Positions 13,592 to 62,051 are shown, counted from the stretch's first letter. The stretch is DNA of 62,051 nt from Patescibacteria group bacterium (GCA_035946335.1 DASYZL010000001.1:1-62051), one strand, 5' to 3'. Program-made: numbers and translations. The notes: generated by a model from the letters alone, not told the origin.

Positions 13592-13644
13592 CAGGTACTC
13601 TTATTGTACCATGTTTTCTTAGAACAAAATACATTGTGAATCGG

Positions 13645-19151: not shown

Positions 19152-20753
19152 TCATTCAGACTGATAAATATACAGAGCGGGCTCTCCATTGTGATAGAAA
19201 ATGGTTTGTAATTTTGTAAGTGTTTTTTGATCCTGCTGTTGTGCAGTGATTAGAATAGCCTTTGCCGCTTTTCCGCATGCTCCAAAGTAAACGTGCTGTA
19301 TGTTAAAACATTTCTTTGTAGTTAACCATGATCCACCCTGTGCCTGATACCACTGAGGATCGATCTTGTTGTAAAATAAATAGAAAATATATCCCTGCTC
19401 TATTGAGTTATCCATAAAAACGGTCTTATTGTTTTTATTTATTTGATAGGCTTCCTGAACAGCTTGTTCATATCCATATTGCCAATCTGGTCCATCGTCC
19501 GTGTTTATATGCACAAAATACATATTACAGTAGTAGGCAAAATTGATGAAAAGCAAAACTCCTGCAAGGTTGAAAACAAAAATACGCTTAAAGTTTTCCA
19601 ATGATATTATTGATACCCATCCGATTGCTTCGAAAATTTGCCAAACTGGTAGAAAGACGAGTGTTCTGAGTGCGTGTGGTGAGCCGATAACCAGGGCGGA
19701 AGGAATCGGGGAGATCAAAAACCAGTATAAAATAATCCAAGCTTTCTTGAGATACTTTTCCAAAAAAATAAATATTCCTATCAGAAGAAACGGCAATGAT
19801 ACAAGATATAAATCACCCATACCAGGCGCATGATGACGGGCCAAGTCTCCTGTGATAAAGAGCCAATTCGGGTCGAAATGGGTTAGGTAATTTTGCAAAA
19901 AAACTCCTGCGTACACAACGCGCCTGTTTTCTAAAATCTGCCCGAAGATATCTCCATTTACCTTATCTTGCTGGAGTTCCTGAACTGAATGCTGTAATAG
20001 AGTGGTTTGTTGCGAAGTAAATGTAAGGCTTACCCCACGAGCTGTCGCATTTCCGCTGAAAAGCCAGAGAGCGTTGCTTGCAAGAAAAAATACGATTACT
20101 AGTGCAATAAAATGCTTGTGTTGCAACGCATATTTTCTTTGCCATATCAGAAAACCTAAAAGCAGTAACGGAACAAATATTTTTTCAGTTTGATACGTAT
20201 AGATACTGAGCAAAAAAGAAACAATTCCAAGGAGAAGAATCATTTTTTTATTCCTGTTAACACCCTTTACCAGCAGCCAGCCTCCGGTAGTTACAAAAAA
20301 GAGGGAAACATTCGCCTCAAACGCACCTCGGGAAAATTGAATAGACCAAGGAGAAATTGCAAAAAAAAGCATTGAAAAGAACGCGAGAAGCAGAGCATGT
20401 TTTTCTTTTTTGAAAAGCTCCCAAACAAATGAAAATACTGCAAGTATTGTCAGCGAGCCAAAAAACGCAGACGGAAAGCGTACAGCAAATTGTGTCAGAC
20501 CGAACACTTTTATTGACGGGACAGTCAGGTATATATACAATGGCGCTTTGTAATCACCGAATGACCGGAATGTCGCCGGCATAACATAACCATATTCATC
20601 TCTTCCTGTCAGAAGAATTGCATAGGCATTGTAACCCAGGGCTGCCTCATCCCAATCCAAAGAATTAGGAATACTATCAAGATTGTAAAAACGCAGGAAA
20701 ACACCAAAAAGAAAAACAAGAAAAAATCCAATGATACACAGTAATTTTTTCAT
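19152..20753 (-). CDS. GT39/PMT-like membrane glycosyltransferase, family A copy 1
   Basis: 'LDWDEAALGYNAYAILLTGRDEYGYVMPATFRSFGDYKAPLYIYLTVPSIKVFGLTQFAVRFPSAFFG'. The start is moved to Met6 (MKKLLCII), which abuts the upstream stop at 20755. Confidence 0.75.
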   Translation of the reverse strand: MKKLLCIIGFFLVFLFGVFLRFYNLDSIPNSLDWDEAALGYNAYAILLTGRDEYGYVMPATFRSFGDYKAPLYIYLTVPSIKVFGLTQFAVRFPSAFFGSLTILAVFSFVWELFKKEKHALLLAFFSMLFFAISPWSIQFSRGAFEANVSLFFVTTGGWLLVKGVNRNKKMILLLGIVSFLLSIYTYQTEKIFVPLLLLGFLIWQRKYALQHKHFIALVIVFFLASNALWLFSGNATARGVSLTFTSQQTTLLQHSVQELQQDKVNGDIFGQILENRRVVYAGVFLQNYLTHFDPNWLFITGDLARHHAPGMGDLYLVSLPFLLIGIFIFLEKYLKKAWIILYWFLISPIPSALVIGSPHALRTLVFLPVWQIFEAIGWVSIISLENFKRIFVFNLAGVLLFINFAYYCNMYFVHINTDDGPDWQYGYEQAVQEAYQINKNNKTVFMDNSIEQGYIFYLFYNKIDPQWYQAQGGSWLTTKKCFNIQHVYFGACGKAAKAILITAQQQDQKTLTKLQTIFYHNGEPALYIYQSE

Positions 20754-20754
20754 A

Positions 20755-22395
20755 TTATCTTGTTGCAAGAATAAAATCAGGCTTGCCGTTCAAAAAATCT
20801 ATTGATTGTATTATGTGGAAATTTAAAGGAATTTCTCCTGGTGCACCAACATACAAAACCTTTTTACCCACATCTGTTGACTCAATCAGTTGTGAGCGGA
20901 ATTGATACTTACCCACTGCAGTTACATTATAAAATCCAAAGACATCATGTGTTATCGAACCTATATTCCAATATGTTTGGGAAGGAATATTCCCAAACCA
21001 TAACAAGTAAATATATGGCCTACCGTAGTATGAAGTAAATGAAATGACATCGTACTGATTTTGCAGTTTTTGTGTTGCTATTATCGCCTGCTGGTATCCA
21101 TATTGCCAGTCATAAGAATATAATTTCGGAAAATTCACGAAATAATTATTAAGAAATGCTGCAACAGAAACAACAACGATTACAATTCCACCAATCCAGG
21201 TAAAACGAAGTATTTGTTTTCTTGCAGAAAGAAGTTGTGAAAGATACCATATTCCGTATGCTCCCATCATTTCATAAGTAGGAATATATGGTTCTCCACG
21301 GAGCGCATGGGGTGTTTCTTTTGCCGTAGCAGCTGCAACTGGCGCTAAAATAAACCAACCAAATAGCAATATAGTTGTTTTATTTTTATTTTTTGCGATC
21401 GCAAATGCACCAAATAAAATCAGCGGCAACTCAAAGAGAAATAACTCACCGCTATCTTGCATGGAAAACCGCGGATTGATATCGCCGGTAAAGAAAAGAA
21501 AATTTGGATTGAAAAAATCAAAGTAATGCCTCAGATATAATAGCGAAAAAATGACCCGTCTGTTGTGAATTATCTTTGCAAGAGTACTGTTATTTTCTTC
21601 CTGTATCCACGCATTTGACTCATGTACAACATCCTCTGCTGAGTAGGTAAAAATGCTCACCTCATTAAAACGCAGTTTACTCTCCGGAGTTCTGAGAAAC
21701 TGGATAAATGGCACGAGCAAAACCAACCCTACAATACAGGAAGCAATAATAGGAATTACTTTTTCTTTTTTCAAAAAATCTTTCCAATATAAGATTGTTA
21801 ATAAGATAATAAGTAACGGAATAAAAATCCGTTGCGCATTAAACGCATAAATTCCTATGGTAAAGGAAATACTGCTCGCAACTAATATCCATGGATTTTT
21901 TCGTTTTGCAAGTAAAAAAAGATAAACACCAAGAACAGTAAAAAATGTTGCAATGTTTCCTTCGTATGCAGCACGACTCAATTGAATATGCCAAGGGGAA
22001 ATTGCTAATAGAAAGGGTGCAGCAAGTGAAATAAGTGCATTCTTCCTCTCCCAAAACAATTCTCTTGCTAGAAAGTAAACAAATAATACCGTCAGCGTTC
22101 CGAAAAGTGCAGAAGGAAAACGAACCGCAAACGTATTTTTACCAAAAATCCTAATTGATGGAACAGTTAAGTAAATATTGACAGGTGCTTTGTAGTCGCC
22201 AAATGCAATAAATCGTGCAACTGGTAGAAATTCGTGGTGTTCGTCATAACCGCCAGTCGTCAGGAGTGAATATGCATTGTATCCTTGAGACACTTCATCC
22301 CAATATAGACTTTCAGGAACTGAACTGATTCCCCAAAAACGCAACAGAGCTGCAAGAGCAACAATGCCAATAAGCAGCCAATTACTTTTTCTCAT
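20755..22395 (-). CDS. GT39/PMT-like membrane glycosyltransferase, family A copy 2
   Basis: 'LYWDEVSQGYNAYSLLTTGGYDEHHEFLPVARFIAFGDYKAPVNIYLTVPSIRIFGKNTFAVRFPSALFG'. The start is moved to Met22 (MRKSNWLLIG), giving a 14-nt overlap with the upstream gene. Confidence 0.75.
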   Translation of the reverse strand: MRKSNWLLIGIVALAALLRFWGISSVPESLYWDEVSQGYNAYSLLTTGGYDEHHEFLPVARFIAFGDYKAPVNIYLTVPSIRIFGKNTFAVRFPSALFGTLTVLFVYFLARELFWERKNALISLAAPFLLAISPWHIQLSRAAYEGNIATFFTVLGVYLFLLAKRKNPWILVASSISFTIGIYAFNAQRIFIPLLIILLTILYWKDFLKKEKVIPIIASCIVGLVLLVPFIQFLRTPESKLRFNEVSIFTYSAEDVVHESNAWIQEENNSTLAKIIHNRRVIFSLLYLRHYFDFFNPNFLFFTGDINPRFSMQDSGELFLFELPLILFGAFAIAKNKNKTTILLFGWFILAPVAAATAKETPHALRGEPYIPTYEMMGAYGIWYLSQLLSARKQILRFTWIGGIVIVVVSVAAFLNNYFVNFPKLYSYDWQYGYQQAIIATQKLQNQYDVISFTSYYGRPYIYLLWFGNIPSQTYWNIGSITHDVFGFYNVTAVGKYQFRSQLIESTDVGKKVLYVGAPGEIPLNFHIIQSIDFLNGKPDFILATR

Positions 22396-24004
22396 AGATT
22401 CTCCAGAGAACTTGTAGGGGCTCAAGTCTATCCGTAATTGTTTCATCAGGGGCTGCATTGATAGTGCATGTTGAGCGAATCAGATAGAGAGATTTTTTTG
22501 GTAAGAATGCATGCGGATCACCAATTCCTGCAATACAATCAGGAAGAAATGTAACTTTACCGATTTTTCTCACTCCTCCCGTTTGCCAAACCTTTTGAAA
22601 AAGGTTTGGGTCAATTTGATTCCAAAAAACAAACTGAAGGAGGAACTTATCGTCTGAGCCGGAAACATATACATGATCATACATTGCATAGTTTTCCTTT
22701 ATTTCTGTCGCAACAGTTCTGCTACTTGCATTCCAAAACTCATTACCAGCACCGTTAAATTGAAACAAATAGCGATAAAGAAAAAGTCCAATACAAACAA
22801 CATACCCTATAATAATAGTCGCAGTGGTGATTAGAAAAAGTATCTTATTTTTTTTGGATATTTCAAACGCATAAAAAATACCACTCCCAATAATGATAGA
22901 AAAAAATGGCACCATTAGCAGCGCACGGATAATATATGTTGTACCAGAACCAATTGCAGAGGAAAGCGGCGCACAGAAGAGCCCTGCAGCAACGGTGAGG
23001 GCTGTTTGTTTACTTGTTTTTTTTGCAAGAAAAATAATACCAAACAAAAGCAGAGGAAATTCAATGATATAAAGAACACCTTTAAAGAAAATACCGTATG
23101 TATATACTGGACTAATATCACCGGTAATAAACAAATGCTGCATTGAAAATGCTCCTAAGTAGTTATCTATCATGCTACTTGCTAAAATAGTCACTTTATT
23201 AGTGACAATATCTTTCAGCAATGTCGGAGCAGAACTTTTTTCTCGGAAATAATTTACTTGCTTGGTCACTTGTTCAATGTTTTTCGGGTCTTTCCATGCA
23301 AGCACCTCTTCTCTACTGACTCCTTGTGTGATAGTTACCAGAAAAAAAGAAGCAAGAATAGTAAAACAGAGAAAAATGAACAAAAACAATTGCTGTTTCC
23401 TTTGCAGTAATTGTTTATAGTACAAAAAAATAAGGATGGGTACAAAACTAACCAAGAAAACCTTCATAGCGTGATAACTGTAAAACGCAAGGAGAAACGC
23501 TGGAATCGACCAGAGAATTGTCCCTTTCCTCAAACCCTTGAGCAGGAGATATGTCCCCAAAAGGTAAAAAAATACCCCCATGTTACCATCCCATGCACCT
23601 CTATTAATGACAGTGTTCCATGGAGAAAATACCATTACGAACCCGCTCAGACTCGCAATCATTTTATTCTGAAAAAGCAGATCAGCTAGTAAATACACCA
23701 GTATCACCGACCCAATACCAGCAAGAGCAAACGGTAATCGTCCAGTAAATGGCGACAGCCCGAATATACCTACAAAAGGTGCGCCAATATAGACCGGGGT
23801 TGGCGACAAGGAGCTATCTAAGTTAATGGAAAGCGGAAGGAACTTGCCCGAAATATCATGTCCACTAGTTTTCCAAATAGTATATGAACTATAAATATAA
23901 CTTATTTCATCATTGGCGAAGCCATATGAAAGTGAATCCAAGTGCCATAACCGCATAACTGCAGCAAATAAAACTATAATAATAAAACCAATCTGCTTTT
24001 TCAT
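22382..24004 (-). CDS. GT39/PMT-like membrane glycosyltransferase, family A copy 3 (most divergent)
   Basis: 'FANDEISYIYSSYTIWKTSGHDISGKFLPLSINLD...GIFGLSPFTGRLPFALAG' keeps the DE and the FG...R.P..AG frame but lacks 'FGDYK'. Confidence 0.65.
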   Translation of the reverse strand: MKKQIGFIIIVLFAAVMRLWHLDSLSYGFANDEISYIYSSYTIWKTSGHDISGKFLPLSINLDSSLSPTPVYIGAPFVGIFGLSPFTGRLPFALAGIGSVILVYLLADLLFQNKMIASLSGFVMVFSPWNTVINRGAWDGNMGVFFYLLGTYLLLKGLRKGTILWSIPAFLLAFYSYHAMKVFLVSFVPILIFLYYKQLLQRKQQLFLFIFLCFTILASFFLVTITQGVSREEVLAWKDPKNIEQVTKQVNYFREKSSAPTLLKDIVTNKVTILASSMIDNYLGAFSMQHLFITGDISPVYTYGIFFKGVLYIIEFPLLLFGIIFLAKKTSKQTALTVAAGLFCAPLSSAIGSGTTYIIRALLMVPFFSIIIGSGIFYAFEISKKNKILFLITTATIIIGYVVCIGLFLYRYLFQFNGAGNEFWNASSRTVATEIKENYAMYDHVYVSGSDDKFLLQFVFWNQIDPNLFQKVWQTGGVRKIGKVTFLPDCIAGIGDPHAFLPKKSLYLIRSTCTINAAPDETITDRLEPLQVLWRIYEKK

Positions 24005-25623
24005 GGTGTTTTAAAGAAATATTTCATTACCGGTTGTCCGTTTGGAAAGTTAATAGTCATATCCTTCGTGCCTATCCCCCGATAGTCAATATATAAAGTA
24101 TGCGGCCGCAAATGCGCATAGTCAATGTAATCAACGAAATGATATTTACCAAAGCTTTTTACTTCATCAAATGCGGCATAGTTTTTCGGATAATATACAA
24201 CTTCTTTTCGAAAAACTGCAGGATCATACTTTGTGTAAAGCAAGAAAGAAATGTAAGGAAAGTTCTCTGGCCCGAACATCACTACCTGATCGGAAGGATA
24301 TTTTTCTGAAAGTTCAACTGCTTGCTCAAATCCATAGTGAAGATATTGCGCTTTTTGATAGTTAATATGCAGATAATATGCATCAAAAAAATAGAGAATA
24401 TTAATCATATATCCAATAAGAAAGCAAAAAGAAAAGAGCTTAACCCAAGTATTTCTCTGAGCATATGATATGATTCCCTCTGCTCCGATGCTCATAACAA
24501 TAATGAACAAAGGTAGCAGGAGGAAAAGACGCGTAGATGACTGTGAGTCATTGGTGATGGCTGATGGTAGTATACCCAATAGAAACCATAGTACAAATAT
24601 AACTTTATTCTTCTCCTTTACCTGCATAATGCCGATACATCCAAATATCAAAAGTATTGCGTCAAGAAGGTAAAAATTACCAAAGTACCCAAGACTATTC
24701 ACTAATTTTGAACCACCGGTATCAAACAAGAAAGATGGCGAAAGTGCTTCGAGGTAGTTCTCTCCGATTTTATATGGAATTGCGAATGGTTTTGAGTAAA
24801 AAATTCTTCCTAAAATTTTATCATTTGAACCATCTATTCGAAAAACATCCGTAATTTCATGTACTATACCTTTATCATTCCATATTGCAAGACTTGATAT
24901 TTTTCCGGTGCTTGATAAATAAACACTCTTTCCCACTAGAATAATTACCACCAGAAAAATGCAGAGACCAGCATAAAAAAATACATTTTTTGGAAGTTTT
25001 TTCCAATATACGGAGAATAAGATCATGCAAAACAATGGGGTAAATATGACAAACGAATGATACGTAAACATTGTTGCTGAAAGCAGCAGACACGAGACAA
25101 GAAAAAGCAGTTTCTTTTTTACATTCTGAATATAATGCAAAAAAGCTAATAATCCCCCAAGGAAATACATAGTTGCAATATTGACCTCAAATGCCATTCG
25201 GGAAAAATAAATTCCCCAAGGTGATACGGTAAAAAACACTGCAGCAAAAAGTGCAACTCGCTTTTTCTGAAAGAGTTTTAAGACGAGAAAATAGGTAAGA
25301 ATAACTTGTACGACACCTGCTAGAGCACTGGGAAAACGGATTGAAAAATCATTTAAACCAAATATTGCGATTGAAGGAATAGTAACAAGCGGGTAGCCAA
25401 TGAGTTTCCAGTCACCAAATGACTCAAGGCTGATTGGAAAATATTTTCCATGTTCATCATACCCTGTTTTCATTAGGGAGTATGCATTATAACCTAACGC
25501 TTGTTCGTCTATGTTAAGGCTTGCAGGAATTTGTGTAAGTGCAATAAATCGTAAAGCAGCCGCGAAAAGGACAATACATATCAATAACCAATAATTCTCA
25601 AGAAATGTTTGCTTCATAAACAT
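24001..25623 (-). CDS. GT39/PMT-like membrane glycosyltransferase, family A copy 4
   Basis: 'LNIDEQALGYNAYSLMKTGYDEHGKYFPISLESFGDWKLIGYPLVTIPSIAIFGLNDFSIRFPSALAG'. Confidence 0.75.
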   Translation of the reverse strand: MFMKQTFLENYWLLICIVLFAAALRFIALTQIPASLNIDEQALGYNAYSLMKTGYDEHGKYFPISLESFGDWKLIGYPLVTIPSIAIFGLNDFSIRFPSALAGVVQVILTYFLVLKLFQKKRVALFAAVFFTVSPWGIYFSRMAFEVNIATMYFLGGLLAFLHYIQNVKKKLLFLVSCLLLSATMFTYHSFVIFTPLFCMILFSVYWKKLPKNVFFYAGLCIFLVVIILVGKSVYLSSTGKISSLAIWNDKGIVHEITDVFRIDGSNDKILGRIFYSKPFAIPYKIGENYLEALSPSFLFDTGGSKLVNSLGYFGNFYLLDAILLIFGCIGIMQVKEKNKVIFVLWFLLGILPSAITNDSQSSTRLFLLLPLFIIVMSIGAEGIISYAQRNTWVKLFSFCFLIGYMINILYFFDAYYLHINYQKAQYLHYGFEQAVELSEKYPSDQVVMFGPENFPYISFLLYTKYDPAVFRKEVVYYPKNYAAFDEVKSFGKYHFVDYIDYAHLRPHTLYIDYRGIGTKDMTINFPNGQPVMKYFFKTP

Positions 25624-25632
25624 GATATTTGA

Positions 25633-27291
25633 TTAGTATGAAAATGCGATCTCATAAAAAATTGGGTGATGCAGTCTATCGTAGATTATTGTATCGGGCT
25701 TTATTGTAGAAGGAAATTCTTTGGGATTGCTGACCAAAAGGATCTTTTTTCCCTGCATATTTTTGATAAGAGGCAGGTTGTGAACAAAATAAATATTATC
25801 AATTCTATCAACCGAAATCCACCCTCCTTGTTCAATGTGAAATGATTTTGTTGAAGACAATTGGTATTGTTTTGGATTATATTTTGCGTAAACCAAATAA
25901 TAAATATATTGCTTTGTATCATTAAGGTAATCAGATATATAAATACGGTCATAATGAGATCTTTTTTTGCTTATACTAGTCATAAGCTCCTGATATCCAT
26001 ACTGAGAAAAGTACCCATAATAGTCAGGGAAGTATGTTGTGTAGGAAATGAAAAATAACCCTATAGACGCAATATACCAAAATAGAAAGATTGTAATCAG
26101 CGATTTTTTAAAAAATATGCTCTTCATTGAACGGATCCGCTGGGTTAAGGAGTATGCACCAATAGCTTCAACGGTCACGAGAAATGGTATCATCGGAGAA
26201 GATCGCGCATAATGACCGTCTCCTGTCAAGGCATCAGCAACTGGTGCAAAAAGTAAAAGCAAGAATGGAAACATGAGTTGCTTTTCTTTTTTTGTTGTAA
26301 TGATAAAGACAATTCCTAAAATGAACAACGGTAGTTCTATAAGATATGCGAGATTGCGCGGAGGTAACAATGCATATTGCGTTGTTGTCCCATCTATATA
26401 AATATAATAAAGAGAAAAATGATGAAGATAGTTAATAAAAAATTGTGTGGCGAATGAACGCGGTTTTTCCATAATTATTTTACAGAAAAAAACAGGATAC
26501 TCTTTCATACAGCTTCCCCGCTTTGCATTAACTTTGTTAATAATGCCAATACTGTTAACATTTTGAAACATACCCACCTGTGAGAATCGTGTATTTGCAG
26601 TCATATTTCCTAAGAGCAGAAGCGGGGCAACGCATACTATAAATAAACTTGCACTAAACAATATAAGAAGTTTTCTTTGTAAGAATTGTTTTCTATAAAA
26701 TAAAAACGACACAAGAATCACTATAGGAATGAATAATGCATAGGCTGAATACGTGTACATACATAACGAAAGAAATACAATAGCAATCGGTAAAAAGTAT
26801 TTGTTTATCTTCCAACGAATAAGAAAATTTAGGCCGCAAAGAAGCAAGCATACGCCTAACGTTGCTTCAGTATTGATCCTGCTTATACCCACTGCCCATG
26901 GAAGTGTAGCAAGGAGGAAAGATGCAAATAATGCAGCAACATTATTGAATAATTTTTTTACAAAAAGATACACTAGCGGAATTGCAAAAACTCCGGCAAG
27001 AAAAGGAGGTACCCGCACTGCAAATTGTGTAAGACCGAAAAGTGCGACAAATGGCATTAAGATATACGTCGTACTAAATGCAGGCCGATAATCACCAAAC
27101 CCTTTAAGGAAGAGCCCTGGTGGATTACCCCATTGATCATGACCGGTATGCAAAAATGAATATGCATCATAGAGAAAATCTGCTTCATCATTTAAAAGTC
27201 CCGTGGGAATAGCACCAAATTTGTACGCACGCAAAAAAATTCCTAAAGAGATAGCAAGGAGCAATAATAAAATTAGTATATATTTATTCAT
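25633..27291 (-). CDS. GT39/PMT-like membrane glycosyltransferase, family A copy 5
   Basis: 'LLNDEADFLYDAYSFLHTGHDQWGNPPGLFLKGFGDYRPAFSTTYILMPFVALFGLTQFAVRVPPFLAG'. Confidence 0.7.
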   Translation of the reverse strand: MNKYILILLLLLAISLGIFLRAYKFGAIPTGLLNDEADFLYDAYSFLHTGHDQWGNPPGLFLKGFGDYRPAFSTTYILMPFVALFGLTQFAVRVPPFLAGVFAIPLVYLFVKKLFNNVAALFASFLLATLPWAVGISRINTEATLGVCLLLCGLNFLIRWKINKYFLPIAIVFLSLCMYTYSAYALFIPIVILVSFLFYRKQFLQRKLLILFSASLFIVCVAPLLLLGNMTANTRFSQVGMFQNVNSIGIINKVNAKRGSCMKEYPVFFCKIIMEKPRSFATQFFINYLHHFSLYYIYIDGTTTQYALLPPRNLAYLIELPLFILGIVFIITTKKEKQLMFPFLLLLFAPVADALTGDGHYARSSPMIPFLVTVEAIGAYSLTQRIRSMKSIFFKKSLITIFLFWYIASIGLFFISYTTYFPDYYGYFSQYGYQELMTSISKKRSHYDRIYISDYLNDTKQYIYYLVYAKYNPKQYQLSSTKSFHIEQGGWISVDRIDNIYFVHNLPLIKNMQGKKILLVSNPKEFPSTIKPDTIIYDRLHHPIFYEIAFSY

Positions 27292-28934
27292 TGTGCAATT
27301 GCCTCAAACGCAATGCTGCCATCAGGAAAGTATATATTGTGTAATGACTTGACAGTATCAGGGACTTCATGAGGCGAAGCAATAATGAGAGTATTTTTTC
27401 TTCCACGCATTGCGGACCAATCGATTGGTAAAAATTCATATTTACCAATTTTCCGGTACATTCTAATAGCACTCATTCGTTCTGTTGTCTGCCAATAATG
27501 CTGATACCAAGACGGGTTTATTTTGTTAAAGAACAAATAGTAAATATAGGGTTGATCATAATAGTAGGTAACAAGAATATGCTGGTAATTCTTTTCTTGC
27601 AGTTTGGCATATGCAAAAACTTGCTGATATCCGTATTGCCAATATAATGCATTATCCCTTGGTGTGACAACGTAGTATTGATGCAGGTAGTATAAAAAAT
27701 TACAGAAGAGCACTACGCTCGCGAGTATGACAAATCCAAAATAGAGCATTTGCGAAAAATGTTTTTTTAGAAAGAGACTACTTGTAAATACTCCAATTGC
27801 AACAGCAATTTGCATGAAAGGGAGTGAACCGATATCTCTCACTGCATGAGGAGCACCAGTTGCAACAGCAGATGGCACCGGTGCAATAAGGATTAGAAAA
27901 AAAACAAGAAATGATTTTTTATTGCGAAACGTAACCAACGCATAGATTCCGATCAAGAGAAATGGCAAATCCCATAGATATAACATGCCCATACCTATCG
28001 CCTGATGCTGCTGTCCGCTGTCACCTTGGAGGAACAAAAAATCAGGAGAAAAATGTTCAAGGTAATTTTTTGTTAGAGTACTTATCCATACTATTCGTCT
28101 GTTTGCAAGTATTTCTCCTGCTATATCGTGGTATTTTTGCGCTTTTTCCAGTTGTTTTATACTAGAATCGAGTGTCGTTTGATCGGAAAAAATAGTGACA
28201 GTTGCAAACCGTGCATCAGTAGTGGACGAAGATAAAATGAGACTTTGCAGGATAGGAAGACTGCCAAAGAAACAAATCGCAAAGGCAATAAGTACCACTA
28301 TAAACTGCTTTTTCAACTCTTTCCAATACAAAACTCCCAAGGCAATGAATAATAATGGCACTAAAAGACGAAAACTGTGGTATGAGTACAAAACGATTAA
28401 AAATGAAATTGACGAAATAAAATAGTACCATTTATTTTTCAACCCCTGGAAAAAGAAAAAAAGCCCTAATGCAAAAAAGAAAACGCCGATATTGCCTTCA
28501 AATGCGGCCCTACTAAACTGCAATGACCAAGGAGAAATTGCAAAGAAAAAGCTGGTCAGTAAAGCAACAGGATGAAAATGTTTTTTCTTGAAAATATCTT
28601 CTTCTATTTCTTTTGTCAGCAAGAAAACGACAATAATCGTAAATGTTCCAATAACTGCTGACGGTAAGCGTACGGCAAATAATGTTAGCCCAAATAGCGC
28701 AACCGAAGAAGCAGTTAAATACGTATATGCAGGGGGCTTGTAGTCATCAAATGAACGAATAGAAAGAGGAAGAAGATTACCATATTCATCCTTTCCCGTT
28801 GTTAAAATCGAATAGGCATTATATCCTTGTGATGCTTCATCCCAATCAAGGCTCGGTGGATTTATTCCAAGTTGATAAAAGCGCAAGCACATACCGAGCA
28901 GAAGAATACTAACAAGAATTATCTTTTCTTTCAT
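27288..28934 (-). CDS. GT39/PMT-like membrane glycosyltransferase, family A copy 6
   Basis: 'LDWDEASQGYNAYSILTTGKDEYGNLLPLSIRSFDDYKPPAYTYLTASSVALFGLTLFAVRLPSAVIG'. The start is moved to Met8 (MKEKIILV), just after the upstream stop at 28936. Confidence 0.75.
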   Translation of the reverse strand: MKEKIILVSILLLGMCLRFYQLGINPPSLDWDEASQGYNAYSILTTGKDEYGNLLPLSIRSFDDYKPPAYTYLTASSVALFGLTLFAVRLPSAVIGTFTIIVVFLLTKEIEEDIFKKKHFHPVALLTSFFFAISPWSLQFSRAAFEGNIGVFFFALGLFFFFQGLKNKWYYFISSISFLIVLYSYHSFRLLVPLLFIALGVLYWKELKKQFIVVLIAFAICFFGSLPILQSLILSSSTTDARFATVTIFSDQTTLDSSIKQLEKAQKYHDIAGEILANRRIVWISTLTKNYLEHFSPDFLFLQGDSGQQHQAIGMGMLYLWDLPFLLIGIYALVTFRNKKSFLVFFLILIAPVPSAVATGAPHAVRDIGSLPFMQIAVAIGVFTSSLFLKKHFSQMLYFGFVILASVVLFCNFLYYLHQYYVVTPRDNALYWQYGYQQVFAYAKLQEKNYQHILVTYYYDQPYIYYLFFNKINPSWYQHYWQTTERMSAIRMYRKIGKYEFLPIDWSAMRGRKNTLIIASPHEVPDTVKSLHNIYFPDGSIAFEAIAQ

Positions 28935-28935
28935 A

Positions 28936-30630
28936 CTATAGCTTGTCTCCAACAATGAACACTAAATCACCATTATGATTATAAATCTTTTTCAACACTC
29001 TGACATTCGATTTCTGATGCTCATATTCACTTGGCGAAAGCGCAATGAGTACATTATGAACCCCTCCCGCCATTTTCTTGAGATCAATATAATCAAGTTC
29101 GTGTTCTCCAGCTCCCCAGCTTGTTCCTCCAAATAGGTATTTTCCAAATCCATACCAGTGCCCGTTTTTTTGGTATTGCGAGGGGTCATATTTGCTATAA
29201 TAAAGTACATACATATATGGCTTCCAGTAATGACCCGAAATAATAATTTTTCCATACTTATTTTGTACTGGGAATACATATTGTAACAATTCTTTGTACC
29301 CATCAGCAAAATCAGCACTCGTCCCCCTTGCAGAAGGACCGTAATATAAGTAGAGGTATTTGGAAAAAAATCCGATAACAATACATAATAAACACATTAC
29401 AAAGATAATCCGCCATTTCCCTTGTAGCAAAAAGAAAATCCATGCTACCCCAAGTCCAGTAATTAGTTGCGGTATCGGTAGTACATTGAGGATTCGAAGC
29501 GCATGGGGATTTGGCACAGAGATTGCAGCAGGAATTGGTGCGAGCAGCATCCATGAAAGAACAACCCATTTTGCTTTTTTCGGCAATTTCCAAAACACGA
29601 CATATAACCCAACAAGGACGAATGGAAATTCCCAGAGATAGAGCATGCCCATTCCGCTTGTTGACTGACGGCCTTGCGGATCACCCTTCGTAAAGAGAAA
29701 ATCCCAACTGAAATTTGCAAAATACCCTTGTACAATCATTTCCGCATAAATAACTCGTCTGTTGTCAATAATTTTATTCATAAAAGTGGGGTGTTTTTCG
29801 AGATCTACTGATGCTGAATAAACTGCTTGTTGGGCATTATCAAAAACACTTACCTGATTAGCTCGAATGCTTCCCTGGGGTGTGGCAAGCGCTTTGTACA
29901 TTGGAAACGAAACGATAAGGAAGAAGAGTACTGCAAGAAAAACAGTTTTTTTCTTCTGTAATAATTCCTTGTGAAAGATAATAAGTAGAGCAATAAGTAT
30001 AAGTGGCGCAAAAACGACAATGCTTCGGTAAAAATAAACACTTACCGCAAAGAGAAACATTGAGAAAAAAAGAAGTGTTATTTTCTTTTTACGTAAAGCG
30101 ACAAGAAATATTATTATGCCACCAATAACAAATGGTGTTCCAATATTTGCTTCAAATTCAGTTCTTGAATACTGAATAGCCCATGGTGCTATTGCAAGAA
30201 AAAATACAATGAGTAAACTGATAGGAGTTCGGTATTTTTGCAGTATACCTGTACCTTTCTCTTCCAGAAGAAGCAATTCGTTCACAAGAAAAAAAGTAAG
30301 AACAACGTCACTGATTCCGGCAAATGCAGATGTAAATCGCGTTGCAAACTCATTTAAACCGAAAAGTGCTATCGGAATAACAGAAAGATAAATATTAGCA
30401 GGCATTTTATAATCGTCATATGATCTGAATAGGATTGGCATAAATGTTCCATACTCGTCACGTCCTGTTTTGAGAATCGAATAGGAATTATAAGAAAACG
30501 CTGCTTCATCCCAATAGATAGATACTGGTACTTCGGTGATCCGATAAAACCGCAGAAAGGCTGCCAGGAAAACAAGCAAAAACAGACAAAGCTGTACCCA
30601 ATATGTTTTTATAAAGACATTAATCTTCAT
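28936..30630 (-). CDS. GT39/PMT-like membrane glycosyltransferase, family A copy 7
   Basis: 'IYWDEAAFSYNSYSILKTGRDEYGTFMPILFRSYDDYKMPANIYLSVIPIALFGLNEFATRFTSAFAG'. Confidence 0.75.
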   Translation of the reverse strand: MKINVFIKTYWVQLCLFLLVFLAAFLRFYRITEVPVSIYWDEAAFSYNSYSILKTGRDEYGTFMPILFRSYDDYKMPANIYLSVIPIALFGLNEFATRFTSAFAGISDVVLTFFLVNELLLLEEKGTGILQKYRTPISLLIVFFLAIAPWAIQYSRTEFEANIGTPFVIGGIIIFLVALRKKKITLLFFSMFLFAVSVYFYRSIVVFAPLILIALLIIFHKELLQKKKTVFLAVLFFLIVSFPMYKALATPQGSIRANQVSVFDNAQQAVYSASVDLEKHPTFMNKIIDNRRVIYAEMIVQGYFANFSWDFLFTKGDPQGRQSTSGMGMLYLWEFPFVLVGLYVVFWKLPKKAKWVVLSWMLLAPIPAAISVPNPHALRILNVLPIPQLITGLGVAWIFFLLQGKWRIIFVMCLLCIVIGFFSKYLYLYYGPSARGTSADFADGYKELLQYVFPVQNKYGKIIISGHYWKPYMYVLYYSKYDPSQYQKNGHWYGFGKYLFGGTSWGAGEHELDYIDLKKMAGGVHNVLIALSPSEYEHQKSNVRVLKKIYNHNGDLVFIVGDKL

Positions 30631-32230
30631 GCAAAAGCGGGCTATTTAAGAGCATCGCAGGAGGGGTTGGGATTGGCTTGTTCTTATGGAATCTCCTCAT
30701 TTGCACAATATAGTCACCGAAGTGTTTTTCTTCAATGATATCGGATACTTTATCTTCGTCGTATGCAATTTTTATTGGGTAGATGTACGGAATACCTTCA
30801 TTTGGTTCAAAAATAAGGAAACGAATATCAGTTGCAAACGTTTTTTCTGGTAAATTGCCCAATTGCCCTGTCTGGCCTCTCCCGGCGAAGTAGGGAAGGT
30901 ATCCATATTGTGTCATTCCGTAATGCTGATAAAGGTATGCCCACGTTGTATTAATATAAAGAGGGTTTGTCATGGTGATAATAGAAAAGGGCTTGTTGTA
31001 TGCCTTTTGATAAGTATAGTTCACAATTGCTTTTTCTTCTGGTAACGTTGCCCCTTGCTGTACGGTGAAGATTACAAAATTATTTGTAAGATACGTTTGG
31101 GAAAGCTGTATCTGACAAAAGAAGAGAAAAATAATCCCCAGAAAGAAAATGAATTTGTTTTTTAAAAAAGTAATAAGCAAGTAAGCCGTCGCGATAACTC
31201 CAGAAGGGAAAAAAGCATAAAAAAGAAAGTAGCTTGTTGAAATTCCGCTGCTAAAAAATTGAAAAAGTAATAGACTTCCCAACCAGATGCCTACAAACAG
31301 GAGTGGTTTCTTGTCTTCTCCCTTCATTTTCCTTATGAGTGCACAAGTAAAAATTCCCAGAAGGAACAGGACAATAGTAGAGGAAAATGCAAATGTTGTT
31401 GTTGTAAAAAAGTCAGTTGAACGCTTCAGAAAATTCTCCAAGAGCAGTTGTAGGGTAACATGTCCATGATCTGTGTTATACAAAAAGGATACAGCTCCCT
31501 TAATCCCTTGAAAATGGAATTTTATTTCTGCAATAAAAAATGAACTGAGGAGGAGTAATAATCCGATAAGGAAAGCGGCACATTGTTTAATGGTAATATG
31601 AGTCTTAAAGATAAATAGAAAGAGCGGTAAGCAGATAAGTAACAACGCAAAGGCAAATTCCCCTTGTATAAAAATACCGAACAGTACCCCGCTCAGCAAT
31701 GCAGATAAGGCACGAGGTTTTTCTAAAAAATCCCAAAGAAAGAATAATAGCACTGGGACAGCGAGGAGACTGAGAATCGGGTTTGACAACCAGTGTGTTG
31801 ACATTTGAAAGAGTGGAGAAAGTATGTAGAGCAGGAACGCAACAATTGTTATCTTTGTCTGGGAAAATAATCTCTGTGTTAATAGTGCGAGAACTCCAGC
31901 ACTTACATATAGCAATATACTAAAAAATAGCGCTGCAAACTCTGGCTGATTGTAAAGCATATATGGCACAGCAAGAGCGTAGTACCATAACACACCGTGA
32001 AATACACCCGGAATATCAGTGGAAGGTCCAAGAATTTTTAAGTGATCGTCATGTAAGATACTGTTCGCTTCGAATGCATCGCGTGCTTGATCATAGGAGA
32101 AAAAAACATGATAGATGATACCTTGTGCAGTAATAAAAATTGCGCAAGCAAACCCAGCAATAAGAAGTAACTGCAAGAGCATTGGGATGCTTCTCCAAGA
32201 GTTCGTGATAGCCGTTACTGTTCTTTTCAT
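30620..32230 (-). CDS. polytopic membrane protein, GT-C-like, family B
   Basis: 'SYDQARDAFEANSILHDDHLKILGPSTDIPGVFHGVLWYYALAVPYMLYNQPEFAA' is the same motif as 13645 and 15940. Confidence 0.6.
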   Translation of the reverse strand: MKRTVTAITNSWRSIPMLLQLLLIAGFACAIFITAQGIIYHVFFSYDQARDAFEANSILHDDHLKILGPSTDIPGVFHGVLWYYALAVPYMLYNQPEFAALFFSILLYVSAGVLALLTQRLFSQTKITIVAFLLYILSPLFQMSTHWLSNPILSLLAVPVLLFFLWDFLEKPRALSALLSGVLFGIFIQGEFAFALLLICLPLFLFIFKTHITIKQCAAFLIGLLLLLSSFFIAEIKFHFQGIKGAVSFLYNTDHGHVTLQLLLENFLKRSTDFFTTTTFAFSSTIVLFLLGIFTCALIRKMKGEDKKPLLFVGIWLGSLLLFQFFSSGISTSYFLFYAFFPSGVIATAYLLITFLKNKFIFFLGIIFLFFCQIQLSQTYLTNNFVIFTVQQGATLPEEKAIVNYTYQKAYNKPFSIITMTNPLYINTTWAYLYQHYGMTQYGYLPYFAGRGQTGQLGNLPEKTFATDIRFLIFEPNEGIPYIYPIKIAYDEDKVSDIIEEKHFGDYIVQMRRFHKNKPIPTPPAMLLNSPLLHED

Positions 32231-32231: not shown

Positions 32232-32954
32232 TTAATCAGTAAAGCGATACTTCAATAGTGTCCAGAGAGCAATCGGTCCATCCTTCATCGCAACAAGCTT
32301 TTTCCCTTCTTCATAGTTTCGGGGTACTGTTTCGATAGGAAGCTCTATAACACGAAGATGTAATTTAAGCAACTTAGCTGTTATTTCTGGTTCAAATGCA
32401 AATCCTTTTGCATGAATTGCCAGATGCTGTAATGCGTTACGGGGAAATAACTTATAACAAGTCTCCATATCAGTAATCCACGTCCCATATAGTACACTCG
32501 TCACTAAACTTAAAAATCTGTTACCGATATAGTGGAGAAGAAATTGGAGATTTTTTTCTTCTTTTGTAAAATGAGGAAGCCTTTTCAAGCGTGTTCCATA
32601 AACAATGTCTGCTTTTTTGAGTAAAATTGGTTGTACTAACTCTTTTAAGAACTTTGGGTCATATTCGAGATCTGCATCTTGAATAACAATGTAATCTCCT
32701 GTTGCTTTTCTAATACCAGTTATTACCGTTGCACCTTTCCCGGCATTTTTTTTATGTTGTGTGAATGAAATATTTTTCAATTTTTCTTTTTTGAGAAAGC
32801 TTGTTACTTTTTCAGCAGTCTTATCTATCGACCCATCATTAATAATGATTATTTCCTTTGTGATACCAGGGATAGTAACTGCAATAACTTTCTGCAGTAC
32901 TTCAAGTATAGTCTTCTCCTCATTAAAGACCGGGATAATAATTGATAATTTCAT
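32232..32954 (-). CDS. GT2 glycosyltransferase, polyprenyl-phosphate sugar synthase-like (DPM1/GtrB-like)
   Basis: 'LSIIIPVFNEEKTILEVL...IIIINDGSIDKT...NAGKGATVITGIRKATGDYIVIQDADLEYDP...FAFEPEITAKLLK'. Confidence 0.75.
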   Translation of the reverse strand: MKLSIIIPVFNEEKTILEVLQKVIAVTIPGITKEIIIINDGSIDKTAEKVTSFLKKEKLKNISFTQHKKNAGKGATVITGIRKATGDYIVIQDADLEYDPKFLKELVQPILLKKADIVYGTRLKRLPHFTKEEKNLQFLLHYIGNRFLSLVTSVLYGTWITDMETCYKLFPRNALQHLAIHAKGFAFEPEITAKLLKLHLRVIELPIETVPRNYEEGKKLVAMKDGPIALWTLLKYRFTD

Positions 32955-54476: not shown

Positions 54477-54478
54477 AA

Positions 54479-55936: not shown

Positions 55937-55938
55937 AA

Positions 55939-58291: not shown

Positions 58292-58295
58292 AGCA

Positions 58296-61602: not shown

Positions 61603-61619
61603 GCAATCCGGATGACACT

Positions 61620-62051
61620 CTACTCTCCCGGTATAACTTGATATACCGTTAAGTACATAGTGCCAATACCGCGTTGATACGAGACGATTTTTTTGAGTGG
61701 CCAATTCGATGGCGCTTCATCGGTATTACTGCACGAAGGACACGGTTCATAAAATACAAAGTATGTTGGCATTGCGATGCTCGTTTTTGCGACATCTTTC
61801 GGTAACATATCATTAATGGGCCAATACCCTTTTATCGTCACATTTGTGTTATTCACCAGGTACATTTCAACTGCTTCAGGCAGTAAACCGTAGGTTCCTT
61901 CTGTCGCGATAAAAATTTTATGTGTTTGTGCCTGTTTGGCAAAAAATGCATTCGCTTCTTTGATTCCTCCCCCTGATGGCCAGCTATTGATAAACTGCAC
62001 CAGATCTGACTGTGGAATCGGTGCGTGAGCAAAATCAAAAAGAATAAAACG
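61620..62051 (-). CDS. 3' end of a gene running off the window, probably the C-terminal soluble domain of another envelope or GT-C protein
   Basis: The ORF-track start at 62000 is a GTG. I translated 62001..62051 in the same frame (RFILFDFAHAPIPQSDL) and found no stop, so the reading frame is open to the window edge. Confidence 0.5.
   Translation of the reverse strand, partial: RFILFDFAHAPIPQSDLVQFINSWPSGGGIKEANAFFAKQAQTHKIFIATEGTYGLLPEAVEMYLVNNTNVTIKGYWPINDMLPKDVAKTSIAMPTYFVFYEPCPSCSNTDEAPSNWPLKKIVSYQRGIGTMYLTVYQVIPGE

What the first reader, a model, noticed from the sequence alone, without database searches (positions are those of the whole stretch)
19152..30630. Seven head-to-tail GT39/PMT-like paralogues in an unbroken 11.5-kb array
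Seen in sequence: seven consecutive minus-strand genes of 530-565 aa each have junctions ranging from a 14-nt overlap to a 9-nt gap. All share an N-terminal extracytoplasmic-loop block '(L/I)xWDE..xGYNAYS.L.TG.DE.G...P...(R/K)SFGDYK.P.Y.YL......FG...FA.R.PSA..G'. They also share a mid-protein block 'NRR(V/I)...Y..HF.P.FLF..GD......GMG.LYL...PF.L.G', a 'PHA(L/V)R' block and a C-terminal soluble domain containing '(W)QYGY(E/Q)Q'. Local nucleotide identity survives too. For example, 'gcaaattgtgtcagaccgaa' near 20486 resembles 'gcaaattgtgtaagaccgaa' near 27019. Elsewhere the copies have diverged strongly, and copy 3 (22382..24004) has lost FGDYK and reads 'NDE'. Established knowledge: GT39/GT83-type GT-C enzymes (PMTs, ArnT) use polyprenyl-phosphate sugars, and an Asp-Glu pair in the first external loop is essential. 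Inference: this is a tandem-duplication array in which each copy probably has a different acceptor or donor specificity. It would act as a combinatorial surface-glycosylation toolkit.
Basis: partly seen in the sequence, partly recalled or inferred. Interest (0 to 1): 0.62.

Follow-up and report, generated by a model that had tools for sequence, protein, structure and literature searches.

The report
Ancient seven-gene membrane glycosyltransferase operon
Seven neighbouring genes in a tiny uncultured bacterium (Levybacteria, candidate phyla radiation) encode related membrane enzymes that most likely attach sugars to cell-surface molecules outside the cell; they are ancient specialised paralogues kept together in one operon across related lineages, not recent duplicates, and their targets are unknown.

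Summary
Seven intact minus-strand genes (19152..30630, 538-567 aa) are full-length paralogues with 25-40% identity. An eighth lies at 59932..61704 and a distant ninth on another contig. They hit Pfam PMT_2. An AlphaFold model (pLDDT 90.9) matches only GT-C enzymes (STT3/AglB/PglB, ArnT, Pmt4). The invariant Asp-Glu pair lies in the first extracytoplasmic loop, so neither refutation criterion is met.

The interpretation needs correcting. The copies are not recent duplicates: synonymous sites are saturated and there is no sign of gene conversion. In a careful tree each copy sits in its own 100/100 clade with orthologues from other genera, families and orders. Each subfamily has its own conserved external-loop motifs. 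Related Microgenomates carry the same cassette: a Dpm1-like GT2, then 3-7 family members, always ending in the ordered pair c2-type then c1/c6-type (21 of 21). Seven was the longest unbroken run found.

Most likely these are polyprenyl-phosphate-sugar-dependent enzymes that share a donor and differ in acceptor or linkage. Donor and acceptors remain unknown. The genes are already annotated as "GT39 family", so this is a new, uncharacterised member of a known kind, of moderate interest.

The parts
19152..20768 (-). Copy 1 (c1), 538 aa, family A GT-C. It is the last gene of the array and the downstream member of the invariant c2->c1 pair.
   Evidence: PMT_2 38 bits. Family HMM 703 bits. Sits in a 100/100 clade with orthologues from G001, G011 and L019.
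20755..22458 (-). Copy 2 (c2), 567 aa (546 aa if it starts at Met22, coordinate 22395), family A GT-C.
   Evidence: Pfam PMT 55.1 bits and PMT_2 48.4 bits. The c2-type clade (100/100) includes a Gottesmanbacteria orthologue. All 21 c2-type genes sampled are followed by a c1/c1'/c6-type gene.
22382..24004 (-). Copy 3 (c3), 540 aa, the most divergent family A copy. It keeps Asp-Glu but lacks the 'DYK' lysine, 'NRR' and 'PHA'.
   Evidence: PMT_2 30.2 bits. The subfamily motifs 'NDE', 'DSSLSP', 'SNK' and 'TYIIR' are shared with orthologues in G001, G011 and G023. 100/100 clade.
24001..25623 (-). Copy 4 (c4), 540 aa, family A GT-C.
   Evidence: PMT_2 43.4 bits. Subfamily motifs 'GDWKL', 'FLFD.GG' and 'NSTR' are conserved in orthologues. 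100/100 clade.
25633..27291 (-). Copy 5 (c5), 552 aa, family A GT-C.
   Evidence: PMT_2 48.9 bits. Subfamily motifs 'NDEAD', 'DQWG', 'GDYR' and 'GDGHY.R'. 100/100 clade with G006 and G033. The c5->c4 order recurs in G033 and G030.
27288..28955 (-). Copy 6 (c6), 555 aa (548 aa as called in the public set), family A GT-C. This is the most widely conserved subfamily and the copy that was modelled.
   Evidence: Homologues at about 50% identity in many Levybacteria and other candidate phyla radiation MAGs. AF2 pLDDT 90.9 and pTM 0.90. GT-C fold matches only. In other Levybacteria its orthologue sits in a different cassette, next to family C GT-Cs.
28936..30630 (-). Copy 7 (c7), 564 aa, family A GT-C, the first gene of the seven.
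   Evidence: PMT_2 22.3 bits in hmmscan, just under the 26.1-bit cut-off, and 26.2 bits in the six-frame genome search. Family HMM 710 bits. Clade with G006, G012, G011 and G027.
30620..32230 (-). Distant GT-C ('family B', 536 aa) between the donor-synthase candidate and the array.
   Evidence: PMT_2 26.8 bits. BLASTP finds no match to family A but does match 15940..17418 and 13636..15201.
32232..32954 (-). Dpm1/GtrB/ArnC-like GT2 (240 aa, no TM segment). Candidate polyprenyl-phosphate-sugar synthase that feeds the array.
   Evidence: Glycos_transf_2 116.9 bits. Best NCBIfam similarities are AglJ, PgfS, PpgS, ArnC-type and dolichyl-phosphate hexose transferase, all below their cut-offs. A 52-64% identical orthologue lies directly upstream of the family A array in G011, G006, G012, G023 and G034.
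34842..35789 (-). Second GT2 (315 aa) at the head of the cassette.
   Evidence: Glycos_transf_2 84.8 bits. Orthologues at 52-56% identity lie upstream of the Dpm1-like GT2 in G006, G012 and G023.
17415..19133 (-). Uncharacterised polytopic membrane protein (572 aa) that closes the cassette.
   Evidence: No Pfam or NCBIfam hit. About 11 hydrophobic segments. Orthologues at 44-52% identity follow c1 in G011, G006 and G012. An invariant 'YPDEFDN' follows TM1. No profile similarity to family A.
59932..61704 (-). Copy 8 (c8), 590 aa, family A member outside the array. It heads a second cassette with two PTPS_related GT-Cs, a Dpm1-like GT2 (55939..56664) and a Wzx-type flippase.
   Evidence: PMT_2 38.6 bits and PMT 30.5 bits. 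23-35% identity to c1-c7. 100/100 clade with G001, L009 and L019.

Best explanation
The seven genes encode polytopic GT-C glycosyltransferases of the PMT_2 (GT39/GT83-like) group. Each has about 11 transmembrane helices, with the N-terminus inside the cell, plus a roughly 120-residue extracytoplasmic C-terminal domain. They form one translationally coupled operon in a Levybacteria (Microgenomates, candidate phyla radiation) genome of about 1 Mb. Inferred mechanism: the Dpm1-like GT2 encoded two genes upstream loads a sugar onto polyprenyl phosphate at the cytoplasmic face. After the lipid-linked sugar is flipped, each GT-C uses the invariant Asp-Glu of external loop 1 to transfer that sugar to an acceptor on the outer face of the membrane. 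The seven proteins are ancient, separately conserved subfamilies. They differ mainly in external loop 4 and the C-terminal domain, so they most likely share a donor and differ in acceptor site or linkage. Comparable cases are the serotype-specific Gtr* enzymes and the mycobacterial Emb, Aft and Mpt GT-Cs. Shown here: family and fold, topology, the age of the duplications, the subfamily signatures and the conserved synteny. Inferred: donor type, catalysis, the shared-donor logic and the nature of the acceptors (a surface glycan, lipoglycan or proteins).
For: Pfam PMT_2 and PMT hits for all seven copies. The AF2 model has pLDDT 90.9 and matches only GT-C enzymes in the PDB: STT3/AglB/PglB at E about 1e-8, ArnT at 1e-5 and Pmt4 at 5e-5. 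Asp39-Glu40 is invariant across 70 sequences. K+R content is 0.23-0.38 in the predicted inside loops against 0.006-0.126 outside, over 117 family members, which places Asp-Glu outside the cell. The 'DYKPP' lysine aligns with the 'KPP' lysine of ArnT, which contacts the carrier phosphate (PMC7801869). Each copy sits in its own 100/100 clade with orthologues from other genera, families and orders. Synonymous sites are saturated. Subfamily-specific motifs in EL1, EL4, EL5 and the C-domain are conserved among orthologues. The ratio of within-clade to between-copy identity is highest in EL4 (2.13) and the C-domain (2.26). The cassette of Dpm1-like GT2 followed by 3-7 family A genes recurs in five other genera. 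Gene overlaps leave no room for internal promoters or terminators.
Against: No biochemical data exist for any member of this subfamily. The donor sugar and the acceptors could not be inferred. The Dpm1-like GT2 falls below every NCBIfam equivalog cut-off. No GtrA-type flippase is encoded in the window; the only GtrA_DPMS_TM match is on another contig. Copy 3 lacks the lysine and several motifs, so it may use another donor or be non-catalytic. Copy 7 falls just below the PMT_2 cut-off in hmmscan.
Confidence: 0.72

Rival explanations
1. The copies are protein O-glycosyltransferases like eukaryotic and actinobacterial PMTs (GT39). Each would recognise a different set of secreted or surface proteins, such as S-layer proteins, pilins or the giant surface fibres of this genome.
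For: Copy 2 exceeds the Pfam PMT (PF02366) cut-off, and copies 3 and 4 give weak PMT hits. The roughly 11-TM topology and the Asp-Glu motif resemble PMTs. NCBI annotates homologues as 'glycosyltransferase family 39'. A bacterial GT39 that glycosylates secreted proteins is known in Caldicellulosiruptor (PMC6151902, seen).
Against: There is no MIR domain and no PMT_4TMC domain. Fold matches to Pmt4 and Pmt1-Pmt2 are no better than those to ArnT or STT3. The window is full of polysaccharide genes (Wzx, GT4s, GT2s, a heptose-type activation set) rather than obvious Ser/Thr-rich substrates. An earlier follow-up found no link between the neighbouring Pro/Thr-rich PP2C stalk and the glycosyltransferases.
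Confidence: 0.3
2. The array is an extracytoplasmic assembly line. The copies act in sequence, each making one linkage of a single surface glycan or lipoglycan from the same lipid-linked sugar, as the mycobacterial Emb, Aft and Mpt GT-Cs build arabinan and mannan.
For: One Dpm1-like synthase heads several GT-Cs in a conserved order. The invariant ordered pair c2-type then c1/c6-type occurs 21 of 21 times. The genome invests heavily in such enzymes, with 23 PMT_2 matches in 1.02 Mb. embCAB is a precedent for tandem GT-C paralogues that share one donor and differ in acceptor (established knowledge; see also PMC11127046).
Against: Copy number varies from 0 to 10 among close relatives, which is unusual for an obligatory linear pathway. 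No polymer product is known in any candidate phyla radiation bacterium. Nothing in the sequences indicates processivity.
Confidence: 0.3
3. Adjacent copies, above all c2 and c1, are subunits of obligate hetero-oligomers like Pmt1-Pmt2. The array would then encode complexes rather than seven independent enzymes.
For: Every one of the 21 c2-type genes sampled is immediately followed by a c1/c1'/c6-type gene, usually with overlapping stop and start codons. An x-type gene precedes a c6-type gene nine times. Eukaryotic PMTs work as dimers (PMC7759382 and PMC12705809 abstracts).
Against: No interaction evidence exists, and no multimer modelling was available. Both partners keep all catalytic-looking residues. 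Conserved gene order can equally reflect consecutive reaction steps.
Confidence: 0.25
4. The array is a young, locally generated tandem-duplication cluster. It is still exchanging sequence by gene conversion and produces rapidly diversifying surface-glycosylation variants.
For: Head-to-tail arrangement of the genes.
Against: No two window copies are sister sequences, and each has orthologues in other genera, families and orders. Codon identity at conserved residues equals the random expectation in all 28 pairs, and the longest run of identical codons is 6. The quoted 20-mers encode the same FGLTQF peptide.
Confidence: 0.03
5. Some copies, especially copy 3, are non-catalytic pseudoenzymes or decaying genes kept only by operon position.
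For: Copy 3 lacks the 'DYK' lysine, Glu57, 'NRR' and 'PHA'. Several relatives carry family members with in-frame stop codons.
Against: Copy 3 is an intact ORF that keeps Asp-Glu, Arg96, Pro-Trp, Arg149 and Arg373. Its deviant motifs are themselves conserved among orthologues in at least three genera. This points to selection for an altered function, not to decay.
Confidence: 0.15

Closest known systems
ArnT (CAZy GT83; Cupriavidus metallidurans, PDB 5EZM/5F15), the undecaprenyl-phosphate-L-Ara4N:lipid A transferase
   Same: ArnT is the only PDB chain found by sequence profile (E 0.008). The whole chains align in the fold search with TM-score 0.47-0.50. Both have the PMT_2-type N-terminal module and an acidic residue at the start of external loop 1. 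The family's 'KPP' lysine aligns with that of ArnT. Overall size is similar, and both carry a C-terminal domain outside the membrane. Both are paired with a Dpm1/ArnC-like GT2.
   Different: This family has about 11 TM helices rather than 13. Its C-terminal domain has no detectable structural relative, ArnT's periplasmic domain included (best E 2.2). The host is a monoderm-like candidate phyla radiation bacterium in which lipid A is not expected. The family occurs as seven to nine paralogues rather than one gene.
Protein O-mannosyltransferases (CAZy GT39): yeast Pmt1-Pmt2 (PDB 6P25), Pmt4 (9I5K), and actinobacterial Pmt
   Same: Both have an Asp-Glu motif in loop 1, about 11 TM helices and a polyprenyl/dolichyl-phosphate-sugar logic. 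Copy 2 passes the Pfam PMT cut-off. Pmt4 is a fold match at E 5e-5. Both families diversify into paralogous subfamilies, and PMTs pair as dimers.
   Different: This family has no MIR domain and no PMT_4TMC domain. It has its own C-terminal domain. Sequence identity is only about 14-17% over the aligned parts. No protein acceptor is known.
Mycobacterial embCAB and the Aft/Mpt GT-C set
   Same: Both are tandem paralogous GT-C genes in one locus. The mycobacterial enzymes use one lipid-linked donor made by a dedicated synthase, and each has a distinct acceptor or linkage (established knowledge; PMC11127046). This is the closest analogue of the operon logic proposed here.
   Different: The mycobacterial enzymes belong to different GT-C families (GT53, GT85, GT87 and GT89). 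They are much larger, carry carbohydrate-binding modules, and match the model only weakly in the fold search (AftA E 0.019). They form three tandem genes rather than seven.
Three-component extracytoplasmic glycosylation systems (GtrB-GtrA-Gtr* of Shigella/Salmonella; GacI-GacL; CsbB-YfhO; Citrobacter GT136 system)
   Same: Both combine a GT2 polyprenyl-phosphate-sugar synthase with a GT-C transferase acting outside the membrane. Different Gtr* enzymes place the same sugar at different positions (PMC11127046).
   Different: No flippase gene lies in this cassette. Here many GT-Cs accompany one synthase within a single genome, rather than one serotype-specific GT-C per element. The locus is not phage-borne.
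Oligosaccharyltransferases STT3/AglB/PglB (GT66)
   Same: These are the best Foldseek E-values (1.5e-8 to 2e-6) with TM-score 0.47-0.51, and they share the same GT-C_A core.
   Different: The seven array copies give no Pfam STT3 match at the threshold used; two of the 120 homologues of copy 6 carry a precomputed STT3 (PF02516) entry. The WWDYG-type C-terminal motif was not looked for. The C-terminal domain is far smaller. The sequence-level affinity is to PMT_2, not to STT3.

Membership tests
Pfam PMT_2 (PF13231), GT-C clan | Score at or above the gathering cut-off (26.1 bits) | tested here: met
   Copies 1-6 score 30.2-48.9 bits. Copy 7 scores 22.3 bits in hmmscan and 26.2 bits in the six-frame genome search. 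All seven are tied together by a family HMM at 614-719 bits.
GT-C fold (GT-C_A class) | Polytopic membrane core with the first external loop carrying juxtamembrane helices, and structural similarity to solved GT-C enzymes | tested here: met
   AF2 model with pLDDT 90.9 and pTM 0.90. All 28 best Foldseek matches (ranks 1-28, E <= 0.02) are GT-C enzymes, with TM-scores of about 0.3-0.5.
GT-C fold (GT-C_A class) | Conserved acidic catalytic residue(s) at the start of external loop 1, facing the extracytoplasmic side | tested here: met
   Asp39-Glu40 is invariant in 70 sequences. The positive-inside analysis over 117 members places this loop outside the cell.
CAZy GT39 (protein O-mannosyltransferases) | Pfam PMT (PF02366) domain above its cut-off | tested here: inconclusive
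   Only copy 2 passes (55.1 bits against a 22.7-bit cut-off). Copies 3 and 4 score 18.8 and 20.8 bits. Copies 1, 5, 6 and 7 give no hit.
CAZy GT39 (protein O-mannosyltransferases) | MIR domain in the large luminal loop and a C-terminal PMT_4TMC module (eukaryotic members) | tested here: not met
   No MIR or PMT_4TMC hit in any copy. External loop 4 is only about 87 residues long. Bacterial Pmt enzymes also lack MIR (established knowledge), so this does not exclude a bacterial-type GT39.
CAZy GT39 (protein O-mannosyltransferases) | Transfers mannose from polyprenyl/dolichyl-phosphate-mannose to Ser/Thr of proteins | not testable with these tools
   This needs biochemistry or glycoproteomics.
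CAZy GT83 (ArnT) | Conserved lysine of the EL1 'EKPP' motif that contacts the carrier phosphate | tested here: met
   The family's 'DYKPP' lysine aligns with the ArnT 'KPP' lysine. Its role is taken from PMC7801869, and the offset between SEQRES and paper numbering was not verified. The lysine is present in copies 1, 2, 4, 6 and 7, is Arg in copy 5 and is absent in copy 3.
CAZy GT83 (ArnT) | 13 TM helices plus an ArnT-type periplasmic C-terminal domain | tested here: not met
   About 11 TM helices in the model. The C-domain modelled alone (pLDDT 88.9) has no PDB match (best E 2.2, TM <= 0.31).
Three-component / Dpm1-GT-C extracytoplasmic glycosylation systems | A GT2 polyprenyl-phosphate-sugar synthase genetically linked to the GT-C | tested here: met
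   The GT2 at 32232..32954 resembles AglJ, PpgS, ArnC-type and dolichyl-phosphate hexose transferase models, all below their equivalog cut-offs. Its orthologue lies directly upstream of the family A array in five other genera. The activity itself was not tested.
Three-component / Dpm1-GT-C extracytoplasmic glycosylation systems | A dedicated flippase (GtrA, MATE or SMR type) in the locus | tested here: not met
   The only GtrA_DPMS_TM match in the genome is at C6:51896-52273, beside a different PMT_2 gene. The Wzx-type gene at 54479..55936 belongs to the second cassette.

The most novel reading that the evidence does not exclude
Microgenomates build a major cell-surface glycan or glycoprotein coat entirely outside the membrane. 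One lipid-linked sugar would be made by a single Dpm1-like synthase and used by an ordered set of up to seven specialised GT-C enzymes. The invariant terminal pair (c2-type then c1/c6-type) would be an obligate bacterial heterodimer analogous to Pmt1-Pmt2. The family's C-terminal domain, which has no solved structural relative, would be the acceptor-recognition module. This would be a lineage-defining envelope pathway of these ultra-small bacteria.
Probability: 0.2. Interest if true: 0.65.

Novelty: new member of a known kind. Interest (0 to 1): 0.4.

Why it matters
Candidate phyla radiation bacteria have pared-down genomes, yet this one carries 23 PMT_2-type matches in about 1 Mb. Eighteen large polytopic membrane-protein genes, sixteen of them with GT-C family matches, take up about half of this 62-kb contig. 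Surface glycosylation is therefore probably central to how these probable epibionts present themselves to hosts, phages and the environment. This study shows that the seven genes are distinct and very old subfamilies. They have conserved order, subfamily-specific external loops and a linked donor synthase. That turns a vague 'GT39 family' annotation into testable hypotheses: which sugar is used, which acceptors are modified, and whether c2 and c1 form a complex. It also defines a large uncharacterised GT-C subfamily, with about 2,900 clusters at 50% identity, whose C-terminal domain has no solved relative. No new mechanism is demonstrated.

Tried and rejected
1. Gene conversion or recent duplication is rejected. 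All-against-all blastn found only 64-73% identity over motif regions, and the codon-identity test was flat.
2. A non-glycosyltransferase membrane family is rejected by the Pfam and fold results.
3. A cytoplasmic location for Asp-Glu is rejected by the positive-inside analysis.
4. A sequence search of copy 2 against the PDB gave only a spurious weak hit, so no residue-level alignment to Pmt1/2 was obtained.
5. The profile-based locus search with the eight-copy alignment failed because no conserved stretch was found. It was replaced by a single-protein search.
6. hhalign of family A against the neighbours 17415..19133, 32951..34864 and 30620..32230 found nothing significant. Whether the first two are GT-Cs remains open.
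7. The C-terminal domain was modelled alone to find an acceptor-binding homologue, but no PDB match was found.
8. The promoter and terminator scan was at background level and uninformative.
10. Four literature searches found no paper describing these arrays in Microgenomates or the candidate phyla radiation. Absence from the held library is not proof of absence.
11. dN/dS was not attempted, because orthologues are 47-60% identical and synonymous sites are saturated.

Full report
**What is there.** The window is an entire 62,051-bp contig of a 1.02-Mb, 97%-complete genome. The titles of the nearest public loci name Candidatus Levybacteria / Levyibacteriota and other Microgenomates-group candidate phyla radiation bacteria. 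Between 19152 and 30630 lie seven intact minus-strand ORFs of 538-567 aa. With the longest ORFs the junctions are -14, -77, -4, +9, -4 and -20 nt. All pairs align over nearly full length at 25-40% identity. An eighth member lies at 59932..61704. A distant ninth lies on another contig.

**Family and fold.** All seven copies hit Pfam PMT_2, and copy 2 also hits PMT. Copy 7 is marginal in hmmscan but passes the cut-off in the six-frame search. NCBIfam gives only a weak Agl23-like similarity. A profile of the eight copies finds only ArnT in the PDB (E 0.008). In that alignment the family's 'DYKPP' lysine lines up with the ArnT 'KPP' lysine, which contacts the carrier phosphate according to PMC7801869. 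An AlphaFold2 model of copy 6, built from 70 sequences, has pLDDT 90.9 and pTM 0.90. Its significant Foldseek matches in the PDB are exclusively GT-C enzymes: STT3/AglB/PglB (E about 1e-8), ArnT (1e-5), Pmt4 (5e-5), then ALG9, DPY19 and AftA, with TM-scores of about 0.3-0.5.

**Topology.** The model shows about 11 transmembrane helices, a 65-residue first external loop, an external loop 4 of about 87 residues and a C-terminal domain of about 120 residues. Over 117 family members the loops predicted to be cytoplasmic have a K+R fraction of 0.23-0.38. The loops predicted to be external have 0.006-0.126. The invariant Asp39-Glu40 pair therefore faces outward.

**Age of the copies.** Nucleotide similarity between copies is confined to motif regions, at 64-73%. 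At identical residues the number of identical codons equals the codon-usage expectation in all 28 pairs (z from -1.4 to +2.3), and the longest run of identical codons is 6. There is thus no residual synonymous similarity and no sign of gene conversion.

Two trees were built: a quick tree of 117 family members and a careful LG+C20 tree of 49. No two window copies are sisters in either. Each sits in its own 100/100 clade with orthologues from other genera, families and orders. The clades of copies 2, 3 and 6 include Gottesmanbacteria sequences. The duplications therefore predate the radiation of Levybacteria, and in part that of the Microgenomates.

**Subfamily signatures.** Each clade has its own motif variants, conserved among its orthologues:
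- c3: 'NDE', 'DSSLSP', 'SNK', 'TYIIR'
- c4: 'GDWKL', 'FLFD.GG', 'NSTR'
- c5: 'NDEAD', 'DQWG', 'GDYR', 'GDGHY.R'
- c2: 'YWDEVSQ', 'DEHH', 'ETPHALR'
- c8: 'N.DET', 'PLYFKSF', 'NPW..FFSR'

The ratio of within-clade identity to between-copy identity is highest in external loop 4 (2.13) and the C-terminal domain (2.26). It is 1.58 in external loop 1, which is the most conserved region overall. This is the pattern expected for long-standing functional specialisation in the extracytoplasmic parts. The family-wide invariants are Arg25, Asp39, Glu40, Tyr45, Thr53, Arg96, Pro142, Trp143, Arg149, Gly311, Gly336, Arg373 and Tyr427.

**Synteny.** Of 41 relatives, 34 carry the family, with 1-10 copies each, nearly always in tandem runs of 2-6. 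A recurrent cassette is seen in G011, G006, G012, G023 and G034. It reads, in order:
- a GT2 like 34842..35789 (in three of the five genera: G006, G012 and G023);
- a Dpm1-like GT2 that is 52-64% identical to 32232..32954;
- three to five family A genes (three in G012 and G034, four in G006, five in G011 and G023);
- either the unknown membrane protein (orthologue of 17415..19133) or a family B GT-C.

Every one of the 21 c2-type genes sampled is immediately followed by a gene of the c1/c1'/c6 super-clade. An x-type gene precedes a c6-type gene nine times, and c5 precedes c4 three times. In other Levybacteria the c6 orthologue sits in a different cassette, beside the two PTPS_related GT-Cs, a Dpm1-like GT2 and a Wzx gene. 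In this genome that slot holds copy 8. The order c7-c6-c3-c2-c1 is shared with the same-genus genome G001.

The seven-gene run is therefore a concatenation of older modules. It is the longest uninterrupted run seen among the roughly 55 genomes and contigs inspected. It is the top of a continuum rather than a unique feature.

**Distribution.** Copy 6 has about 2,900 relatives at E <= 1e-30 among representatives of 50%-identity clusters. Public annotations call them 'glycosyltransferase family 39 protein' or 'ArnT-like'. In an even sample of 201 Patescibacteria genomes, multi-copy full-length matches occur almost only within the same class. Nine of the 10 same-class or same-family genomes have matches, mostly 4-8 copies, although at most 7 candidates were scored per genome. 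Outside the class, 19 of 190 genomes have matches, mostly a single hit confined to the N-terminal half.

**Mechanism (inferred).** The 240-aa GT2 at 32232..32954 resembles AglJ, PgfS, PpgS, ArnC-type and dolichyl-phosphate hexose transferases, all below their equivalog cut-offs. It is syntenically bound to the array. By analogy with GtrB/Gtr*, ArnC/ArnT and Ppm1/Pmt (PMC11127046 and established knowledge), it would make a polyprenyl-phosphate sugar. The GT-Cs would use that sugar outside the membrane.

With one synthase and several anciently specialised GT-Cs, a shared donor with differing acceptor sites or linkages is the most economical reading. Three questions cannot be decided from sequence:
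- whether the acceptors are proteins (PMT-like);
- whether the acceptor is one glycan built stepwise (Emb/Mpt-like);
- whether adjacent copies form heteromers (Pmt1-Pmt2-like).

No flippase gene is present in the cassette. Copy 3 lacks the lysine and several motifs, but in a clade-conserved way. The C-terminal domain, modelled alone at pLDDT 88.9, has no PDB relative (best E 2.2).

**Limits.** The promoter and terminator scan was at background level. Four literature searches found no description of these arrays. Earlier notes of this scan on the same contig were read as context only. They cover the GT-C-PBP pedestal fusion, the PP2C/kinase operon and family B.

**Verdict.** The assignment to GT-C/PMT_2 is correct, and the Asp-Glu pair faces outward. 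The array is an ancient, conserved, specialised operon, not a recent tandem expansion. It is a new, uncharacterised member of a known kind and of moderate interest.

Noticed in passing
window 17415..19133 (-): A 572-aa polytopic membrane protein with no Pfam or NCBIfam hit closes the conserved cassette in G011, G006 and G012. It has an invariant 'YPDEFDN' just after TM1, which resembles a GT-C loop-1 acidic motif, but it shows no profile similarity to family A.
   Followed up: partly
window 52657..61704 and loci L005-L009, L015, L018: A second conserved cassette has this order: a family A GT-C, two PTPS_related GT-Cs (58296..60083 and 56645..58291), a Dpm1-like GT2 (55939..56664), a Wzx-type flippase (54479..55936) and two GT2s. 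In other Levybacteria the family A slot holds the orthologue of copy 6; here it holds copy 8. Copy 6 therefore appears to have been relocated into the big array.
   Followed up: partly
whole genome G000: There are 23 PMT_2 matches in a 1.02-Mb genome. The 62-kb contig alone carries 18 large polytopic membrane-protein genes. Sixteen of these have GT-C family matches (8 family A, 4 family B, 2 PTPS_related, 1 YfhO and 1 GT-C-PBP pedestal fusion) and two are unassigned. Together they take up about half of its length.
   Followed up: partly
copy 6 residues 432-555 (window 27291..27662): The extracytoplasmic C-terminal domain is a small alpha/beta domain containing the 'WQYGY' motif. It models confidently (pLDDT 88.9) but has no structural match in the PDB (best Foldseek E 2.2).
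   Followed up: yes
G000:C6:50255..52273: A canonical-looking pair lies elsewhere in the genome. A 407-aa frame with the only GtrA_DPMS_TM match, probably a GT2-GtrA fusion, sits directly beside the gene with the best PMT_2 score.
   Followed up: no
loci L003, L010, L011, L013, L017: MAG records titled 'uncultured Gammaproteobacteria' (binchicken and SRP co-assemblies) carry Microgenomates-type family A arrays with the same synteny as Levybacteria and Gottesmanbacteria contigs. Their taxonomic labels are probably wrong.
   Followed up: no
relatives G005, G011, G014, G025, G026, G039, G040, G043, G098: Some family A copies in related genomes contain one or more in-frame stop codons or are split. 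Copy number therefore changes partly by pseudogenisation.
   Followed up: no
window 32951..34864 (-): A 637-aa protein with about 13 hydrophobic segments and no family assignment lies between the two GT2 genes at the head of the cassette. Weakly similar proteins (22-24% identity) precede arrays in G033, G030 and a Gottesmanbacteria contig.
   Followed up: no
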